Below are positions 12,001 through 21,000 of a stretch of 64,000 nucleotides of DNA, piece after piece (the first letter of the stretch is position 1; each line of letters starts with the position of its first letter). Made by a program: the position numbers. This DNA is from an uncultured Candidatus Binatia bacterium (GTDB taxonomy: Bacteria; Desulfobacterota; Binatia; UBA9968; JAJDTQ01), in the NCBI GenBank assembly GCA_965215605.1, contig OZ244070.1:480001-544000 (forward strand), given 5' to 3'.

Positions 12001-15000
12001 GACTCCGTCGCCGGCCGCCCCGCGGACGATGCTCGACAGCTCATCGACGCTCTTCGGTCGCGCCACCGCTCCGGGCATCTTCCTGATCATTCTTCCCCAG
12101 TCGTACGATCGAGCCTCCCGGTCTTCCCGGTCTTTGCTCACGCTCGATTCGACACCTTGTTCGACCATTTCTCCTCCTCTCGGGGCACCGTTCCCCGCGG
12201 CAAGATCCTAGAGGCACGAAGCCGCTTCGTCAACGTGCTTCCCGGTTCCGGATCGCTCTTGCATTTCCGTCGGCGGCTACCTAGTCTTTCCCCCGACACG
12301 GGAGGCCACATCGTGGCCGGTATGCAGCAACGGGGGACCAGAGTGGAAATGGAAACGTCTGTCGCCAAACACTACGCCGACTTGACCGAACGCATGGAGA
12401 AGTTCGGCGGGGATCTGCTGGCATGCCATTTCGGCCTTTGGGGACCGGACACGACCACCGATCAGGAAGGCCTGTTGCGCGCCAACCATACCCTGGTGCA
12501 GGGGTGCGATCTCGGCGCGGGACAGCGTGTGCTGGATGCCGGCTGCGGCGTGGGCGGCACCGCCATCATGCTGGCGGAGGCCTATGGCGCCCACGTCACC
12601 GGGCTGACGATCTGCGAGCCGCACGTCGCGGTGGCGGCACAACACGCCGAACGGCGCGGCGTCGGCCATCTGGTGGATTTCCGCCACGGGGACTTCATGG
12701 AGCTGCCGTTCCCTGACGCCAGTTTCGATGCGGTCTTGAATCACGAGTCGTTCTGCTACGCGGACGACAAGCTCGCCTACCTCCGGGGGGTCCACCGGGT
12801 GCTCAAGCCGGGAGGCCGCTGGCAGGCCCTCGAAGGACTGCTGAGCGGCGCGCCGATGTCCGAAGCGCAGGAAGCGCTTCACGCAACCGCACAGCGGGGC
12901 TGGCGCATGCCGCCACTCGAGCCGTGGCGCGACGTTCTCGCGGCTCTCGAGGAAGCGGGTTTCGCGCAGATACGGGAGCAGGACCTCTCCGCCGAGGCGA
13001 TGCGGTCCACGGAAAGAATCCGCCAGGGCTGGCTGTTGCTGACTTTCCTGAATCCCCGCGCCGGCGGGCTGAATCGGGCCTCCCAGGAGTTCATGGAAGC
13101 GACCGTCGGCTACGATCAGGGACTGCAGGAAGGGGTGTTCACCTACCACTTCCTGTCCGGCGCGAAGCCTGCGTAGAGGCCGGTCGACTCAGCCGGGTTT
13201 TTCCGCACAGTATCGCCTGAGCTCGAAACTTCCGTTGCTCCAGGCTTCGTACAGCGTTTGGAACTGGTCGATCAACGCGCGGGTCCCGGGCGTTTCGACG
13301 CCGGCAAACCGTAGCGTTGCAAGCAGATTGTAGGCATTCCCGACCAGCCGCATGTTGTCCGCGTCTTTCCCGCCGAAATCCTCGAACTCCAGGACTTCCA
13401 GGCCCGCTTCGCGCAACTTCCCGGAGTAGGTGGACTGGCTCTCCAGACCCTGCACGGCGAACGGCTCGCACAACGGCACGATGTACTTGTCGTACGCCTC
13501 GGCCGCCAGACCGTCCCGCGCCATCCAGTCCATGGCCACGATCCTTCCCGACGGCTTCAGGATCCGGCTGGCTTCCTGAAGGAACCGCCCTCGGTCGTGG
13601 TAGTGGCATGCGCTCTCGATGTTCACCACCACGTCCACCGAAGCGTCGGCGAAAGGCAGGCTCAGCGAGCAATCGGCAAACTCGAAGCGGACTCGATCGT
13701 CCACACCGGCATCGCGTGCCTTGCCGGCGGCCATCTCCAATTGCATCCGGTTCAGATTGACGCCGGTGACCGTGCATCCCCGCGTTCTTGCAAGGTGGAT
13801 GGCGGTTCCGCCCACCCCGCACCCCGCGTCCACCACATGATGGCGTTCCTCGATGCCGGCCGGCGCGACGATGACCTCCACCATGCGCTCCACGGCGCGC
13901 GCGAGTCCCGCGGACTCCGAGAGTTCCTCGCCGGGCCGGGGACATTCTCCCGGCTCGAAGAGTCCGAAGTGGATATGGTCGCGATTCCACCCCCTGAGGT
14001 AGATGCCCGGCGTATTGTCGTCGTAGTAGCGTTCGGCGGCTTTCTTCTCGTCAGAGGCGGACATTTCGCGGACGGACCTCCCCTCAGGAAGACGGCGGCG
14101 TCAGCAACGCCATGAAAGGATACCCCTTGACCTGCTCGATCCGGTCCCCGGCCAGCACGAGCTTGATGTGGTGAACGCCGCGCAGGAGCACGAACGGCCC
14201 CAACACGCCGAACAGCGTGGTCGGACCCGGTGCCCACTTGGCCAGCGCCGACAGCTTTTCCGGAACCGCAAGGCTTTCCTCGCGCAAGCCATCGATGAAA
14301 GCGGTCCAGAGATCGGGCCGGTCCAGCCAATGACGCGGATCTTTCGCCCTCCTCTCCTTGGCGAGGTAACTCAGTCCCAGCGTCGGACCGACCCCGCCCG
14401 CATCCACGTCCAAATGGACCCCCATCTCGACGAACCCCCCTCGCTCCGCAAGGCGCGCCAGGGTTGCGGCGGCGACCGGACTCTGTCCGGGCCAGCCGAC
14501 GCGTTCCAGGAACGCCATGACGGCGCGTGAGTTCCGAAATCCTGTCACCGCAAGACGGATTGCCCTTTCGCGCGATGGAAATACGCCGATGGATTCGATC
14601 TGCGTATCCCCTTCCTGGGCCAGGTGCACCCGTTCGACCTGCCGGCGCTCAGCGGCGTCCGGGGTCCACCCGGCGGCGGAAACCAACGCGTCGAGCACAA
14701 CGTCCACGTCCCGTATCCGCTGGCCCGCGCCGTCCCCCACGATGGGCCGTTCGGCAGGGCGCAGGAATATCCCCGGATCCGGGCGCGAGCCGCCGAGTGC
14801 CGAGCCGACGTCGTACTCAAGCATCATCTTGCGGCCGACGACCTCGCGCAAGGGGGATTCCTCGGAGTCCGTCTCGGACAAGAACAGCGCGATTCCGGCC
14901 GCGGACGAATCCGTGCTTCCCGACCGCGCCTTTTGCTGGAAGACCGCGGCCGCCCCCGTCCCGCCCACCAAAGAGACGCCGAGATCCGCTCTCGGCCTGC

Positions 15001-18000: not shown

Positions 18001-21000
18001 ACCGCCGGCCCCGTGTTGCAACTCGGCCATGAGCGGGGCACGCGCGCCGGCGTGGGCCAGGACCTCGCGCCGCGCCTCGTCGAAGCGGCCATCGATGCCG
18101 GAATCCCCGGCAGCGTATACGCACCGCGCTCGAGTCAGTTCCAGAAGCTCCCCGGCTGCGTGGCCTTCGATGAACTCCGCAAGAGAACGGACGGGTCGGC
18201 GCGCGGCTCCGGGCGGGACCGGCGCCAGCAACAGGTTGTCCTCGGACAGCTCCCGAAGCACGTCGAGGAACCGTCGGCCCATGGCTTTGTGGTGGCCGGC
18301 ATCGCCGTCGTAAACAAGCATGAGGTCGAGGTCCGCCCCGGGCGCCGTGTCCCGGCTGGCCAGATCGCCCAGCAACAGCGCCGCCATGCCTCCTTCGGCG
18401 CCCCGGCCGGCGAACTCCTCCTCGACGACCGACAACACCGTGACGATGGAGGTCTCCGCGACATTGGACAGAGCGACCCCCGCCTCCGCCGGCGACAGGT
18501 TGCCGCGCAGGGTGTGTATGCCGACCTGGAACACCTTGTCGTTCGACCAGTTCCGCACCGTTTCCACCGCCTCGGCCGTACCCAGAAAGGGCAGCTCCGC
18601 GATCTGTTCCAACATTTCCGCGACGCCGAGCTCCCGAGTCCAGTACAGGCGCGAGAGGCCGCGGCGGGCTATGGCCTCGGACTCCGTATCCGTCCCGAAA
18701 CCCCGCGGGAGGTCGAGATCGGTGAACTCCCTGCTGTCGAGGACGTCGAGCAGTTCCGGCGAACGGTTGATCCACTTCGCCAGGCGCGGCGCGGCGCCCA
18801 TGATCTCGGCAATGGTCTCGAACGATTCCGGACGCGCCGCCGCCGCCGGGCTGTCGTAGGCGCTCCAGTCCTCGATTTCGGGATAGAAGTGCGCGCGCCA
18901 TTGGTCCACCAGCGGGTCCATGGTCTCGAACCAGCGCCGGGGAAACAGCGCCATGCCGCCCATCTGCATGTAGCTGCCGGGCAGTTGCGGCGCCTCGTCC
19001 TCGCCGCAGTGCTGCAACAGCGGGTAGCGGCGGGTGGGGGCGATGTGGTGGTCGGGATGACGCTGCATGTTGTAGAAGAACAGGTTGCTGAGCTTGTAGG
19101 CGGCGCTCCAGGAATGGCACGCCCGCACCTTTTCGTACCGGCCGTTGGGCATGCGGATGCGCCGCAGGCCGTAGTGCTGGACGTAGTTGATGATCTTCAT
19201 CGAGAAGACCACGCCCGCGCAGATGACGGCGTAGGTCAGCACCACCCACAACCCGCCCACCCAGTACGCGAACGCGTACCACACGGCGGTCTCGAGGGCG
19301 TAGCGCCAGAACGGATTGGTGTAATGCCACACCGGCAGGTGGCGGCGCGCAAGCCGGTCGCGCTCGAAGCGCCAGGCCGCCAGGATGTTGTTCCTGACCT
19401 CGCCGGGCAGGTACTGCCAGAAGCTCACGCCCTTGGGCGGTGAGCCGGGGTCCCCGGGCGTGCAGACCAGTGCGTGGTGGATATAGATGTGCTCGGTCGC
19501 ATAGGTGGGATAGGAAACGCACGCCAGGAGGAACTCGCCGAGCCGGCGCTCCGGCGCCGCGCGTGAATGGATCAGCTCGTGGCCGACGATGAAACAGGGC
19601 TGCGCCACCATGCCCAGCACGAACGCCATGGCCACGACTTCCCAGGTGGACAAATGGCCCACCACCAGCACCTGCCAGAGCGAGAACACGAGCGTCCCCA
19701 CCCAGAGCACCGCCCACAGCCACACCGCCAGCTTGTACAGCAACAACTGCCGGTCCAGGGTCCTGGCCGGGTCCATGTTCCGCTCTTCGGTGCCGAACCG
19801 GGTATCGAGCCAGTCCGGGAGCTGGAAGAAGACCAGCGGAGCCAGGATCCACCAGCCTCCCTGGACCGCGGCGTTGATCACCAGCGGGAAGATGGCCAGG
19901 TTCATGGAGTACAGGAGGGCGTTCCGAACCGACGGCTCAAGCATCTCCCGCGCTCCGCCCCCGACCCCGCCGGGCTGCGCCATATCCTTTGCCATGTCAG
20001 TTCCCGTATCTGCCAACGGCCATGAAATCGAAGGGTTACAGTGTCTATTGTCCACGGGTCGGAAGCCCTGTCAAGACGAGGCGCGGGACCGTCATCCGCT
20101 TCCGCTTCACCCGAATCCCGGCGTCCGTCCCTCCAGCAGCGCCCCCAACTCCTCCGCCCGGAACTGCAACCCCAGATAGAACGGCCCGAACAGGCCGTAG
20201 AGGGCGCTGGCTTCGTCGAAGCGCATCTCGTAGACCAGCTTCTTGAACACCACCGGATCGTCGGCGAAGAGGTCGACGCCCCACTCCCAGTCGTCGAAGC
20301 CGATGGAGCCGGAGATGACCTGGGTCACCCGGCCGGCGTAGCCCCGGCCGATGAAACCGTGGTCCGCCATCATCCGCTGCCGTTCGGCGAACGGCGCATC
20401 GTACCAGTTCTTCTCCTCGCCCCGCTTCTTGTCCATGGGATAGAAGCAGACGTAGCGCCGGGCTGGGATGTCCGGTCGGAGCCGGTTTTCCATGGTCTTC
20501 CGCGCCTGGGCCAGATAGGCCTCCACCTGCTCCTTCCACTCCGGGGTGTCGGGGGCGATGCCCTTCTCCTTCAGGGAGCCGTAGAGCTGGCCCGAGCCGC
20601 TGTAGAGTCCCAGCTCGACCACCGAGAGGTAGGAGGTGGTCTGCTCCAGGAAAGGCGCCAGCTTGAGTTGGGCCACCGCCAGCTCGGCCTCGTTCAGGGC
20701 GTCCATCGAGTCGCGGAAGTGGATGAGCATCAGGTCGCCCTTGTGGCCCAGCAGCGACGCGAGGCCAGTGCGGCCATTGGCGGCGTGCTCCACCGATTTC
20801 AGGGCGGCTGTCGCTTCGTCGACGGCCTTCTGACGCGGCCCGGCACCCAGCGCGTTCCACTCCGGCCAGCGGATGCGGAACATCTGGTGCAGGATGCTCC
20901 AGCCCTCCAGGGTGAGGGGGACGGGAGGGGAGTCCGCACTATTGGGATCGACATCGGACACGACCTCTTCAATTAACTTTCTTCGGCAACCGTTTTCAAG

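What a model noticed while it worked through the whole genome (the two positions that open the first line are those of the whole stretch)
13189..20055. AlkB-like hydroxylase fused to a GlnE-like nucleotidyltransferase, paired with a LynD-type heterocyclase
An 814-aa protein joins a membrane di-iron AlkB-type oxygenase with intact His boxes to a GlnE/GlnD-type nucleotidyltransferase. Its gene lies directly upstream of a full-length E1–YcaO heterocyclase of the cyanobactin (LynD/TruD) type, followed by an unknown 375-aa protein and a methyltransferase. The pair is kept together in congeners and is patchy in the genus. There are no cyanobactin proteases and no srp-type precursor nearby, so it is not a recognised RiPP pathway.
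Evidence so far: - PDB sequence search: alkane monooxygenase 8f6t at E 1.3e-52 for residues 71-385. - His boxes HELIH, EHIYIHH and QRHPDHH are visible in the printed sequence. - C-terminal half: Atlas score 0.92, 191-201 shared features, all ten best hits in PF03710 GlnE; no PDB match. - Heterocyclase: LynD 4v1t at E 2.7e-167 over residues 55-796, TruD at 4.4e-157; Pfam YcaO 1e-97. - The 375-aa protein has no Pfam and no PDB match. - The two genes are adjacent in 5 of 5 congeners tested, and their identities co-vary: 94% and 88% with G022, 55% and 65% with G021. - The heterocyclase is in 15 of 27 congeners and in 0 of 33 genomes of the other two families of the order. - The TEEQL-coding motif is absent from [...]
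(Added by a program. Inside this text positions count along the whole contig: contig position 480,001 is position 1 of the stretch shown here. "Call 12" and the like, gene names such as g00115 and contig names such as C1 are that model's own, and its searches are not shown. The text may have been shortened before it was handed on; [...] marks where a part breaks off. The agent that wrote the report below was given it as the finding of a first reader that could run no searches.)

Follow-up and report, generated by a model that had tools for sequence, protein, structure and literature searches.

The report
Sponge-type thiazoline peptide gene island

Summary
The interpretation "no srp-type precursor, not a recognised RiPP pathway" is wrong. 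An 87-aa NHLP/proteusin precursor ending ...DEEQLQAVSAG-LCCCGI lies at 8001-8264. NHLP-type export genes lie at 1743-7848 and an RND transporter at 8479-10797. Everything from 1743 to 20055 is one 18.4-kb island. It sits between two core genes that are direct neighbours in 3 of 5 cluster-less congeners.

The island belongs to the published sponge-derived RiPP proteusin (srp) family, in which the YcaO makes three thiazolines. It is a sister class of the described form. Its core is xCCCGx instead of LCCCW. It has two methyltransferases and a cytokinin-dehydrogenase-like flavoprotein instead of the Trp brominase.

New here:
- The "unknown" 375-aa protein is an ABBA/DMATS-fold prenyltransferase.
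- The C-terminal half of the fusion is a complete GlnE-type module, but its catalytic acid pair is decayed in most relatives.
- The fusion never occurs without the YcaO.

Most likely product (inferred): a prenylated, methylated tri-thiazoline lipopeptide, oxidised at the membrane and exported. This is a new variant of a known kind, of moderate interest.

The parts
1743..2699 (+). HlyD-type adaptor of the NHLP export system; first gene of the island
   Evidence: TIGR03794 at 91.9 bits, below its cut-off of 156.2. Pfam HlyD_3 and HlyD_D23. A homologue is present in 35 of 79 sources.
2700..4922 (+). NHLP bacteriocin export ABC transporter with an N-terminal C39 peptidase domain; the likely leader-cleaving exporter
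   Evidence: TIGR03796 at 881 bits (cut-off 853.3). Pfam Peptidase_C39, ABC_membrane and ABC_tran.
4927..7848 (+). Second NHLP export ABC permease/ATPase
   Evidence: TIGR03797 at 684.1 bits, just below its cut-off of 709.4. The match starts at residue 331 of the 1016-aa open frame.
8001..8264 (+). NHLP/proteusin precursor peptide, 87 aa. The leader ends ...LDEEQLQAVSAG and the core is LCCCGI.
   Evidence: Listed, sequence. TIGR03793 at 69.5 bits (cut-off 50.9). Aligned with 35 relatives; C83, C84, C85 and E72, E73, Q74, L75 are invariant.
8479..10797 (+). RND transporter of the HAE3/MMPL/HpnN-like kind (hydrophobe/amphiphile efflux)
   Evidence: TIGR00921 E 8e-47 and HpnN-like E 6e-29, both below their cut-offs. 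A homologue is within 10 kb in 46 of 79 sources.
10840..12168 (-). FAD-linked oxidase, cytokinin-dehydrogenase-like
   Evidence: Pfam FAD_binding_4 7.2e-28 and Cytokin-bind 4.9e-6. The best solved relatives are cytokinin dehydrogenases at E 4.5e-41; EncM follows at 2e-23. Present in 13 of 79 sources, never with a W-only core.
12322..13176 (+). Class I SAM methyltransferase MT2. The start is uncertain: ATG 12322 or ATG 12349.
   Evidence: Pfam Methyltransf_11 5.7e-24. 31% identical to MT1. Start candidates.
13189..14064 (-). Class I SAM methyltransferase MT1
   Evidence: Pfam Methyltransf_11 4.8e-21. The nearest NCBIfam model is sarcosine/dimethylglycine N-methyltransferase at 87.7 bits, far below its cut-off of 550.
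14084..15211 (-).
   Evidence: AlphaFold2 model with pLDDT 92.1 and pTM 0.91. Foldseek gives 119 PDB matches at E<=0.001, best PriB. VIA-align gives Z 16.6, rmsd 4.7, 311 residues aligned to MpnD, and all 50 listed entries are aromatic prenyltransferases. Atlas rank 12 is 'putative prenyltransferase', PF11991 in 75% of members, score 0.90.
15218..17614 (-). Fused E1-like/RRE-YcaO cyclodehydratase, SrpC-like. An alternative start is GTG 17455, which gives 745 aa.
   Evidence: Pfam YcaO 1e-97. TIGR03604 at 271.8 bits (cut-off 219.25). TIGR03882 leader-binding domain at 146 bits (cut-off 36.9). LynD, TruD and MusD.
17611..20055 (-). AlkB-type membrane di-iron oxygenase (about residues 40-390) fused to one complete GlnE-type nucleotidyltransferase module (about residues 392-814). 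The likely start is ATG 19995, which gives 794 aa.
   Evidence: A promoter-like site lies at 20074-20047 on the minus strand (10 of 12 matches).

Best explanation
The four genes are the tailoring operon of an 18.4-kb, horizontally acquired RiPP island (window about 1640-20106). The island belongs to the sponge-derived RiPP proteusin (srp) family and is a sister class of the described form.

SHOWN here:
- The island encodes an NHLP precursor with core LCCCGI.
- It encodes a fused RRE-YcaO cyclodehydratase.
- It encodes an ABBA-fold prenyltransferase-like protein.
- It encodes the AlkB-GlnE fusion.
- It encodes two methyltransferases and a cytokinin-dehydrogenase-like flavoprotein.
- It encodes an NHLP C39-ABC/ABC/HlyD export set and an RND transporter.

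TAKEN FROM PRINT, for the LCCCW relatives:
- The YcaO, guided by the leader's L(X)4L motif, turns the three Cys into thiazolines.

INFERRED:
- The ABBA enzyme adds an isoprenoid, giving a membrane-seeking lipopeptide.
- The AlkB domain has its di-iron site at the cytoplasmic membrane face. It oxidises a hydrophobic part of that intermediate, most likely the prenyl tail.
- The GlnE-type module mainly serves to dock or regulate, not to adenylylate.
- The methyltransferases and the flavoprotein finish the xCCCGx-class product, taking the place that the Trp brominase has in the LCCCW class.
- The C39-ABC system removes the leader after ...SAG and exports the product. The RND pump carries the amphiphile outward.
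For: Precursor and export:
- The precursor reaches TIGR03793 at 69.5 bits (cut-off 50.9). The C39-ABC exporter reaches TIGR03796 at 881 bits (cut-off 853.3).
- The L(X)4L motif (LDEEQL) and the CCC are invariant in 36 of 36 aligned precursors.

Synteny. The 78 loci were picked only for encoding a relative of the 375-aa protein. Counting them with the window (79 sources):
- 65 hold the YcaO, 55 the AlkB half, 56 the GlnE half and 70 a precursor.
- Among the 60 loci with full 10-kb flanks, 52 hold the YcaO, 52 a precursor and 44 the fusion. The fusion occurs without the YcaO in 0 of them.
- 53 open frames carry both halves of the fusion.

Class split:
- Of 39 sources with W-ending cores only, 0 have the methyltransferases, 18 have a Trp halogenase and 35 have a 433-aa NHLP-fused protein.
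- Of 17 sources with CCCG cores only, 16 have the methyltransferases, 10 the flavoprotein and 0 a halogenase.
- The tree of the 375-aa protein splits the two classes at 100% SH-aLRT.

Island:
- The flanking cyclodeaminase and HemQ genes lie under 100 bp apart in 3 of 5 cluster-less congeners, against 18.5 kb here.

Folds.

GlnE-type module:
- The His-box His residues are 44 of 44 invariant.
- The first catalytic acid of the nucleotidyltransferase motif is D or E in only 9 of 44, and the second in 36 of 44.
- The [DE]x[DE] pair is kept in 7 of 14 methyltransferase-class fusions and in 0 of 28 LCCCW-class fusions.
- The same module, again without DxD, is fused to AcrB-type RND pumps.

Hints at a lipid-like product:
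- An RND HAE3 pump.
- LolA-like genes in 28 of 79 sources.

Literature (passages seen with the find mode):
- SrpE core LCCCW, SrpC YcaO makes three thiazolines, SrpI is a Trp brominase.
- LCCC proteusin clusters hold 'several genes of unknown function'.
Against: - No product, no modified peptide and no expression data for this island were seen. No RNA run holds it.
- The island lacks the Trp brominase and the C-terminal Trp that gave the srp family its name. It is therefore not srp in the strict sense.
- The prenyl acceptor is unknown. The only invariant core residues are the three Cys, and print says all three are cyclised.
- The 375-aa protein matches no prenyltransferase Pfam model, so activity rests on fold alone.
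- No rubredoxin gene was found in the 97% complete genome, so the electron donor of the AlkB domain is unknown.
- In this window's protein both nucleotidyltransferase acids are present (D575, D577), so a catalytic role cannot be excluded here.
- 8 of 60 full-flank loci hold the YcaO without the fusion within 10 kb.
- The founding paper (JACS 2021) and all supplements could not be read. They may already annotate these genes.
Confidence: 0.85

Rival explanations
1. One reading: an orphan pathway that is not a RiPP or not a recognised one. The heterocyclase and the fusion would act on a small molecule or on an unknown substrate, with no precursor peptide nearby.
For: There is no small ORF inside the tightly packed four-gene operon. 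There are no cyanobactin proteases. The TEEQL motif as such is absent.
Against: An NHLP precursor lies 4.9 kb away in the same inserted island. Homologous precursors are found in 70 of 79 sources. The YcaO carries a leader-binding domain (TIGR03882, 146 bits). NHLP-specific exporters are present.
Confidence: 0.03
2. The GlnE-type module of this window's class is an active AMP (or nucleotide) transferase. It adenylylates the peptide or the alcohol made by the AlkB domain, for example to create a leaving group.
For: The window's protein keeps both metal-binding acids (D575, D577), as do 7 of 14 methyltransferase-class relatives. The fold is a complete GlnE AT module, with Z 30.3 and 27.9, and also resembles the AMPylase DrrA at Z 21.0.
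Against: 0 of 28 LCCCW-class fusions keep the pair, although the fusion itself is conserved. The GG of GlnE's glycine motif is AS in 42 of 44 relatives. The same module without DxD sits on RND pumps.
Confidence: 0.25
3. The AlkB-GlnE protein does not touch the peptide. It remodels membrane lipids, for example as self-protection or to aid export of the product, and only travels with the cluster.
For: It is 35-40%-level similar to true alkane hydroxylases (E 1.3e-52). Lipid-type transport genes (RND HAE3, LolA-like) lie in the clusters. No membrane di-iron oxygenase acting on a RiPP turned up in the paper searches.
Against: Its stop overlaps the longest YcaO frame by 4 bp (TTGA). It lies on the same strand as the YcaO and within 1.5 kb of it in 48 of 55 sources. 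It is never seen without the YcaO in 60 full-flank loci.
Confidence: 0.15
4. The AlkB-type domain acts as a desaturase that oxidises thiazolines to thiazoles. It would replace the FMN-dependent azoline dehydrogenase that the island lacks.
For: The domain belongs to the fatty-acid-desaturase superfamily (PF00487). All 11 island genes are assigned and none is a nitroreductase-type dehydrogenase. Print speaks of 'azole' products.
Against: The closest solved relatives are hydroxylases, not desaturases. A polar heterocycle is an unlikely guest of an alkane channel. In this class the flavoprotein is another candidate oxidant.
Confidence: 0.12
5. A cyanobactin-type pathway, as the LynD/TruD similarity and a PatF-like prenyltransferase fold might suggest.
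For: LynD E 2.7e-167, TruD 4.4e-157, MusD 1.2e-148. An ABBA-fold protein lies next to the heterocyclase.
Against: The precursor is an NHLP, not PatE-like. No PatA/PatG-type subtilisin protease is among the 11 island genes. Leader removal is provided by a C39-ABC exporter.
Confidence: 0.02

Closest known systems
srp (sponge-derived RiPP proteusin) gene clusters: SrpE precursor, SrpC YcaO, SrpI Trp-6-brominase. Founding paper Nguyen et al., JACS 2021, was not held. Later papers were seen in passages only.
   Same: - The precursor is an NHLP with the EEQL-x-x-SAG leader end and an xCCC core.
- The cyclodehydratase is a fused RRE-YcaO, 64-74% identical to those of the LCCCW-class loci.
- The same AlkB-GlnE fusion and the same 375-aa protein lie next to the YcaO.
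- The same NHLP export set and RND pump are present.
- The clusters are scattered across many phyla.
   Different: - The core is LCCCGI, not LCCCW.
- There is no Trp halogenase and no 433-aa NHLP-fused protein.
- Two methyltransferases and a cytokinin-dehydrogenase-like flavoprotein stand in their place.
- From the gene order in L031 and the printed names SrpC and SrpE, I infer that the fusion is 'srpB' and the 375-aa gene 'srpD'. I could not check this.
mpp cluster of Moorena producens: Nif11-type leader, lanthionine synthetase MppM, brominase MppI, prenyltransferase MppC (passages seen).
   Same: A long, structured leader guides a prenyltransferase and other tailoring enzymes on a very short core. 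A brominase partner occurs in the sister class.
   Different: The leader is Nif11, not NHLP. The chemistry is lanthionine, not thiazoline. There is no AlkB-type enzyme.
Cyanobactin heterocyclases LynD/TruD/MusD. Recalled, not from a call: linear cyanobactins such as aeruginosamide, which are N-prenylated, C-terminally methylated and contain thiazoline.
   Same: The E1-like/RRE-YcaO architecture and the sequence are shared. The combination of heterocyclase, ABBA-fold enzyme and methyltransferase on a short linear core is also shared.
   Different: There is no PatA/PatG protease and no PatE-type precursor. Leader removal is by a C39-ABC exporter.
AlkB alkane 1-monooxygenase, including the natural AlkB-rubredoxin fusion 8f6t.
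   Same: The His boxes are shared, and the whole catalytic domain aligns over residues 71-385. Both carry a C-terminal cytoplasmic fused domain.
   Different: The fused domain is GlnE-type, not rubredoxin. No rubredoxin gene was found in the genome. The third motif reads NYVQHYG, with Q in 44 of 44 relatives, where 8f6t has E. The context is a RiPP cluster.
GlnE, glutamine synthetase adenylyltransferase.
   Same: The fold of one complete AT module is shared (Z 30.3 to 1v4a, 27.9 to 3k7d). In a profile search of 1.84 billion representatives, bona fide GlnE proteins are the next relatives, aligning through their C-terminal AT domain.
   Different: There is one module, not two. The catalytic acid pair is decayed in most members. 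The module is anchored to a membrane enzyme. A true GlnE-sized gene lies elsewhere in the genome.

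Membership tests
NHLP/proteusin RiPP system | Precursor with a nitrile-hydratase-like leader (TIGR03793) | tested here: met
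   69.5 bits against a cut-off of 50.9.
NHLP/proteusin RiPP system | Dedicated NHLP export ABC transporter with a C39 peptidase domain (TIGR03796) | tested here: met
   881 bits against a cut-off of 853.3. The partner models TIGR03797 (684.1 against 709.4) and TIGR03794 (91.9 against 156.2) fall below their cut-offs.
srp (sponge-derived RiPP proteusin) cluster | Short core holding three contiguous Cys after an EEQL...SAG leader end | tested here: met
   The precursor ends ...DEEQLQAVSAG-LCCCGI. CCC is invariant in 36 of 36 aligned precursors.
srp (sponge-derived RiPP proteusin) cluster | SrpC-type fused RRE-YcaO cyclodehydratase | tested here: met
   TIGR03604 at 271.8 bits (cut-off 219.25) and TIGR03882 at 146 bits (cut-off 36.9). 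It is 64-74% identical to the YcaO of LCCCW-class relatives.
srp (sponge-derived RiPP proteusin) cluster | C-terminal Trp in the core and a SrpI-type flavin-dependent Trp brominase in the cluster | tested here: not met
   The core has no Trp. tblastn with a cluster halogenase finds nothing in the 64-kb window. PF04820 genes exist elsewhere in the genome, next to other NHLP precursors.
srp (sponge-derived RiPP proteusin) cluster | Carried by sponge-associated bacteria of many phyla | tested here: inconclusive
   Relatives carry 9 phylum labels. A few record titles point to sponges, such as Poriferihabitaceae and Spongia_Bin9. The habitat of the window's own organism was not established.
Cyanobactin pathway | PatA/PatG-type subtilisin proteases and a PatE-type precursor | tested here: not met
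   All 11 island genes are assigned and none is a subtilisin. The precursor is an NHLP.
AlkB alkane 1-monooxygenase | Histidine motifs of the membrane di-iron centre | tested here: met
   HELIH, EHIYIHH, NYVQHYGL and QRHPDHH are present, and every His is 44 of 44 invariant. The domain aligns with 8f6t at E 1.3e-52.
AlkB alkane 1-monooxygenase | Rubredoxin electron donor, fused or encoded in the genome | tested here: not met
   PF00301 finds nothing in the 97% complete genome, while the control rings in 7 of 14 reference genomes.
AlkB alkane 1-monooxygenase | Terminal hydroxylation of alkanes | not testable with these tools
   This needs an enzyme assay.
GlnE adenylyltransferase | Two tandem AT modules, about 950 aa in all | tested here: not met
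   One module of about 423 aa follows the AlkB domain.
GlnE adenylyltransferase | Nucleotidyltransferase glycine motif and DxD acid pair | tested here: inconclusive
   The window has D575-x-D577. Among 44 relatives the first acid is D or E in 9 and the second in 36. The pair is kept in 7 of 14 and in 0 of 28 members of the two classes.
ABBA (PT-barrel) aromatic prenyltransferases | Barrel of antiparallel strands ringed by helices (alpha-beta-beta-alpha repeats) | tested here: met
   The model has pLDDT 92.1. Z 16.6 to MpnD, with 311 of 375 residues aligned. All 50 listed matches are aromatic prenyltransferases.
ABBA (PT-barrel) aromatic prenyltransferases | Match to a family profile (PF11991 Trp_DMAT or PF11468 PTase_Orf2) | tested here: not met
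   There is no Pfam hit at E<=0.01. Only Atlas look-alikes carry these families.
ABBA (PT-barrel) aromatic prenyltransferases | Prenyl transfer from an isoprenyl diphosphate | not testable with these tools
   This needs an assay. Many invariant or nearly invariant basic residues exist (R72, K128, R151, R214, R216, R219, K319, R344, K350, K362), but they were not mapped onto the model.

The most novel reading that the evidence does not exclude
The AlkB-GlnE protein is a new kind of RiPP tailoring enzyme. It is a membrane-integral di-iron oxygenase that works on a prenylated tri-thiazoline peptide. A catalytically decayed GlnE module serves as its cytoplasmic docking or gating domain for the large NHLP leader. 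That module would then be a reusable 'adaptor for membrane machines', since it also occurs on RND pumps. The product would be a membrane-targeted lipopeptide shared by horizontal transfer among sponge symbionts of many phyla.
Probability: 0.25. Interest if true: 0.8.

Novelty: new variant of a known kind. Interest (0 to 1): 0.5.

Why it matters
The srp/LCCC proteusin clusters are reported as among the most widespread and most highly transcribed biosynthetic clusters of sponge microbiomes. Their final product and ecological role are still called cryptic. In the papers I could read, the conserved genes beside the YcaO are only 'genes of unknown function'.

Three results turn that blank into testable chemistry:
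- One of those genes is a prenyltransferase by fold.
- Another is an AlkB-type oxygenase tied to a largely decayed GlnE module.
- The family has a second class, which is brominase-free and rich in methyltransferases.

The testable steps are prenylation, membrane oxidation and methylation of a tri-thiazoline peptide.

For the scan itself, the case shows that a motif search for one spelling (TEEQL) missed a precursor that reads DEEQL.

Tried and rejected
- Complex prediction (GlnE-type module, alignment A2, with the precursor, alignment A3) was never accepted. The queue was full, and one search gave no usable answer. Binding of the leader to that module is therefore untested.
- Expression: no RNA holder is listed for window 7900-17899. 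No reads were laid.
- A metagenome scan for relatives of the RND-GlnE fusion P0291 found none.
- The founding srp paper (PMC8780398) and the mpr paper (PMC9746716) are not held. Supplements are closed. They may already annotate the fusion and the 375-aa gene.
- Paper searches for proteusin or NHLP with desaturase, AlkB or prenyltransferase found no description of these genes.
- The Ser/Thr-rich C-terminus of the 375-aa protein as the YcaO substrate: rejected, because that tail is not conserved.
- HemQ (20107-21063) as the first gene of the operon, and the M16 peptidase pair (22368-25120) as RiPP proteases: rejected. They are core genes outside the island.
- Base composition does not mark the island: GC is 0.669 against 0.650 for the rest of the window.
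- A Trp halogenase in the window: none found.

Full report
**Observation.** The minus strand of the window carries four tightly packed open frames:
- 17611-20055 (814 aa)
- 15218-17614 (798 aa)
- 14084-15211 (375 aa)
- 13189-14064 (291 aa)

- The 814-aa protein matches alkane 1-monooxygenase 8f6t at E 1.3e-52 over residues 71-385.
- It carries the His boxes.
- It hits Pfam FA_desaturase at 1.1e-27 and GlnE PF03710 at 29.9 bits against a cut-off of 24.
- The 798-aa protein matches LynD at 2.7e-167, TruD at 4.4e-157 and MusD at 1.2e-148.
- It passes the NCBIfam models for the SagD-type YcaO and for the TOMM leader-binding domain.
- The 375-aa protein has no Pfam or NCBIfam match.
- The heterocyclase is found in 15 of 27 congeners, and in 0 of 5 and 0 of 68 genomes of the two other families of the order.
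- The gene call on record for the fusion is 794 aa, starting at ATG 19995. A promoter-like site lies just upstream, at 20074-20047.
- The 745-aa call for the heterocyclase corresponds to GTG 17455.

I fetched 78 loci from one-genome-per-species contigs. The only criterion was that they encode a relative of the 375-aa protein (334 relatives found, the best 80 kept). I then clustered all their open frames together with those of the window.

One small family stood out: 83-87-aa peptides ending ...[TD]EEQLEAISAG-LCCCW or ...-xCCCGx. The window's member lies at 8001-8264 on the plus strand and ends ...LDEEQLQAVSAGLCCCGI. It passes the NHLP leader model TIGR03793 (69.5 bits, cut-off 50.9).

Upstream of it lie three export genes:
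- an HlyD adaptor (1743-2699)
- an NHLP export ABC transporter with a C39 peptidase domain (2700-4922; TIGR03796 at 881 bits, cut-off 853.3)
- a second NHLP ABC protein (4927-7848)

Downstream of it lie three more genes:
- an RND pump of the HAE3/HpnN-like kind (8479-10797)
- an FAD-linked oxidase (10840-12168, minus strand)
- a second methyltransferase (about 12322-13176, plus strand)

**Extent.** In five congeners that lack the heterocyclase, I searched for the orthologues of the ornithine-cyclodeaminase-family gene (434-1639) and of the HemQ-type gene (20107-21063).
- In three of the five (G010, G022, G019) the ends of the two matches lie under 100 bp apart.
- In G025 they lie 3.4 kb apart.
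- In G027 they lie 36 kb apart.
- In the window they are 18.5 kb apart.

The block from about 1640 to 20106 is therefore an inserted island. HemQ, the sigma-54 activator and the two M16 peptidases are core genes outside it. These also accompany the cluster only in the closest relatives, L003 and L053. Base composition does not mark the island.

**What family it is.** Papers I could read in passages describe the sponge-derived RiPP proteusin (srp) clusters.
- The NHLP precursor SrpE has the core LCCCW.
- The YcaO SrpC turns the three Cys into thiazolines.
- The flavin-dependent SrpI brominates the C-terminal Trp.
- The L(X)4L motif of the leader is the handle for enzymes.
- Metatranscriptomes of sponges show very high transcription of the 252-bp precursor genes, with the consensus ITEEQL.

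The founding paper is not held.

The window's island shares the family's precursor type, YcaO, exporters and RND pump. Among 79 sources (78 loci plus the window) the counts are:
- YcaO in 65
- the AlkB half in 55
- the GlnE half in 56
- a precursor in 70

Among the 60 loci with full 10-kb flanks the counts are 52 for the YcaO, 52 for a precursor and 44 for the fusion. The fusion is never present without the YcaO. The YcaO lacks the fusion in 8 of them. These loci were chosen through the 375-aa protein, so its own frequency says nothing.

In the LCCCW-class locus L031 the gene order is:
1. a 433-aa NHLP-fused protein
2. the fusion
3. the YcaO
4. the 375-aa protein
5. the precursor
6. the RND pump
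7. the ABC genes
8. HlyD
9. a LolA-like gene

Print names the YcaO SrpC and the precursor SrpE. I therefore infer that the fusion is 'srpB' and the 375-aa gene 'srpD'. This could not be checked.

**A sister class.** Cores fall into two kinds.
- Of the 39 sources with W-ending cores only, 0 have the methyltransferases and 0 the FAD oxidase. 18 have a Trp halogenase and 35 have the 433-aa protein.
- Of the 17 sources with CCCG cores only (including the window), 16 have a methyltransferase and 10 the FAD oxidase. None has a halogenase and 1 has the 433-aa protein.
- Six sources hold both kinds of precursor, and one has RCCC.

The tree of the 375-aa protein (78 rows, quick search) splits the two classes with 100% SH-aLRT. 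It mixes 9 phylum labels, with at least 15 label changes.

The window has no halogenase. The same genome does have PF04820 genes beside other NHLP precursors elsewhere. Because the brominase and its Trp are absent, I do not file the island as srp in the strict sense. It is a brominase-free sister class of the same family.

**The 375-aa protein.**
- It has 755 relatives at E<=0.001 among the candidates scored. The best 120 have a very constant length of 368-439 aa.
- It has 31 invariant columns in 34 sequences. Its C-terminal tail is not conserved, so the protein is not a substrate.
- The AlphaFold2 model is confident (pLDDT 92.1, pTM 0.91).
- Foldseek finds 119 solved chains at E<=0.001, led by PriB and 6-DMATS.
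- VIA-align gives Z 16.6 (rmsd 4.7, 311 residues) to MpnD. All 50 entries listed are aromatic prenyltransferases.
- Atlas look-alikes include a cluster named prenyltransferase, with PF11991 in 75% of its members.

Fold is shown. Activity and acceptor are not.

**The fusion.**
- 53 open frames in the 79 sources carry both halves. The few split cases lie at contig ends or look like frameshifts (L003, L002, L011, L041).
- A word-indexed search finds 817 relatives. Nearly all of the 120 listed are about 800 aa and carry PF00487, mostly together with PF03710. Where their sources name them, they are called 'fatty acid desaturase' or 'hypothetical protein'.
- All His of the four motifs are invariant in 44 of 44. 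The oxygenase half is therefore under selection as an enzyme.
- The C-terminal 423 residues fold (pLDDT 86.8) into one complete GlnE AT module. The matches are Z 30.3 to the N-terminal domain of E. coli GlnE, Z 27.9 to its C-terminal domain, and Z 21.0 to DrrA.
- The catalytic pair is decayed. The first acid is D or E in 9 of 44 and Ala in 22. The second is D or E in 36 of 44.
- The pair is intact in 7 of 14 methyltransferase-class members, the window included, and in 0 of 28 LCCCW-class members.
- A profile of the module searched against 1.84 billion representatives finds 321 proteins at E<=1e-30. These are first the AlkB fusions and fragments, then true GlnE proteins through their C-terminal AT domain.
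- Among the hits are about 1520-aa proteins in which the same module follows an AcrB-type RND pump. These again lack a DxD pair.

A module that keeps its fold while losing its acids, and that is appended to two unrelated membrane proteins, is best read as a docking or regulatory domain. For the window's own protein, catalysis is not excluded.

No rubredoxin gene was found in the genome, so the electron donor is open.

**Other tailoring genes.**
- MT1 and MT2 are 31% identical paralogues. MT1's nearest named model is an amine N-methyltransferase, far below its cut-off.
- The flavoprotein's best solved relatives are plant cytokinin dehydrogenases (E 4.5e-41, against 2e-23 for EncM). From established knowledge, these enzymes oxidise the C-N bond next to an N-linked isopentenyl group. 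Beside a prenyltransferase this is a lead towards an N-prenylated intermediate, nothing more.
- LolA-like genes in 28 of 79 sources, and the HAE3-type RND pump, fit an amphiphilic product.

**Most likely mechanism.** Steps 1 and 6 rest on family membership and print. Steps 2-5 are inferred.
1. The YcaO binds the leader through its RRE and makes three thiazolines.
2. The ABBA enzyme prenylates the peptide.
3. The lipidated intermediate partitions to the membrane.
4. There the AlkB domain oxidises it, with the GlnE-type module holding or gating the leader.
5. The methyltransferases and the flavoprotein finish the xCCCGx-class product.
6. The C39-ABC pair cleaves after SAG and exports it, and the RND pump moves it on.

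Rivals are:
- an active AMP-transferase role for the GlnE-type module
- a lipid-remodelling role for the fusion
- a thiazoline desaturase role for the AlkB domain

They are listed with their tests.

**Verdict.** The claim of an unrecognised, precursor-less pathway is not supported.

The island is a new variant of a known kind. It is a brominase-free class of the srp/LCCC proteusin family, carrying methyltransferases and a flavoprotein instead, and acquired as an 18.4-kb island.

The interest lies in the still unexplained enzymes that the whole family shares. In the library I could search, no paper describes a membrane AlkB-type oxygenase, a GlnE-type module or a prenyltransferase in these clusters. 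The founding paper and all supplements remain unread.

Noticed in passing
own genome outside the window: G000:C6:411-2757; G000:C1:235643-237661; G000:C1:244186-245779: Three more NHLP precursors lie next to Trp-halogenase (PF04820) genes. The two cores that were read end in Trp (...AGG-IGDINTW and ...AGG-SWSALW). The genome therefore holds brominase-type proteusin loci of another kind besides the island studied.
   Followed up: partly
L031:3836-5146 (and 49 of 79 sources at 50% identity or more): A 433-aa protein whose first ~75 residues are an NHLP-like leader (TIGR03793, 50.7 bits, at the cut-off) fused to a ~350-aa domain with no Pfam match. It is typical of the LCCCW class and absent from the window. 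Its C-terminal region holds a Q-x-x-D-G-S-W stretch that recalls terpene-cyclase/prenyltransferase repeats; that resemblance is my recollection and was not tested.
   Followed up: partly
proteins P0291 and P0297 (representative library; no locus): About 1520-aa proteins in which an AcrB-type RND pump is followed by the same GlnE-like module as in the AlkB fusion, again without a DxD pair. A metagenome scan for their context found nothing.
   Followed up: partly
window 10840-12168 (-): The island's FAD-linked oxidase is closest to plant cytokinin dehydrogenases among solved structures (E 4.5e-41). This is unusual company for a bacterial RiPP cluster and suggestive beside a prenyltransferase.
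   Followed up: partly
L022:11730-13837; L031:19944-20840: LCCCW-class clusters often carry a LolA-like outer-membrane lipoprotein-sorting gene (28 of 79 sources) and a 409-aa gene with no Pfam match (25 of 79). Neither is in the window.
   Followed up: no
L003:5182-7607: In the closest relative the fusion is read as two open frames: an AlkB part at 95% identity and a GlnE part at 68-70%. This is either a real split or an assembly frameshift.
   Followed up: no
window 4798-7848 (+): The second NHLP ABC protein has about 290-330 residues ahead of the region that matches the full-length model TIGR03797. This is an unassigned N-terminal extension.
   Followed up: no
window 22368-25120 (+): A pair of M16 (insulinase-type) peptidase genes overlaps by about 140 nt in the longest frames. 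NCBIfam places them nearest YfmH/YfmF. They are core genes outside the island.
   Followed up: no
whole genome G000: No rubredoxin (PF00301) was found in a 97% complete genome that encodes an AlkB-type oxygenase. A second, smaller FA_desaturase-family gene lies at C1:2616465-2617100.
   Followed up: partly
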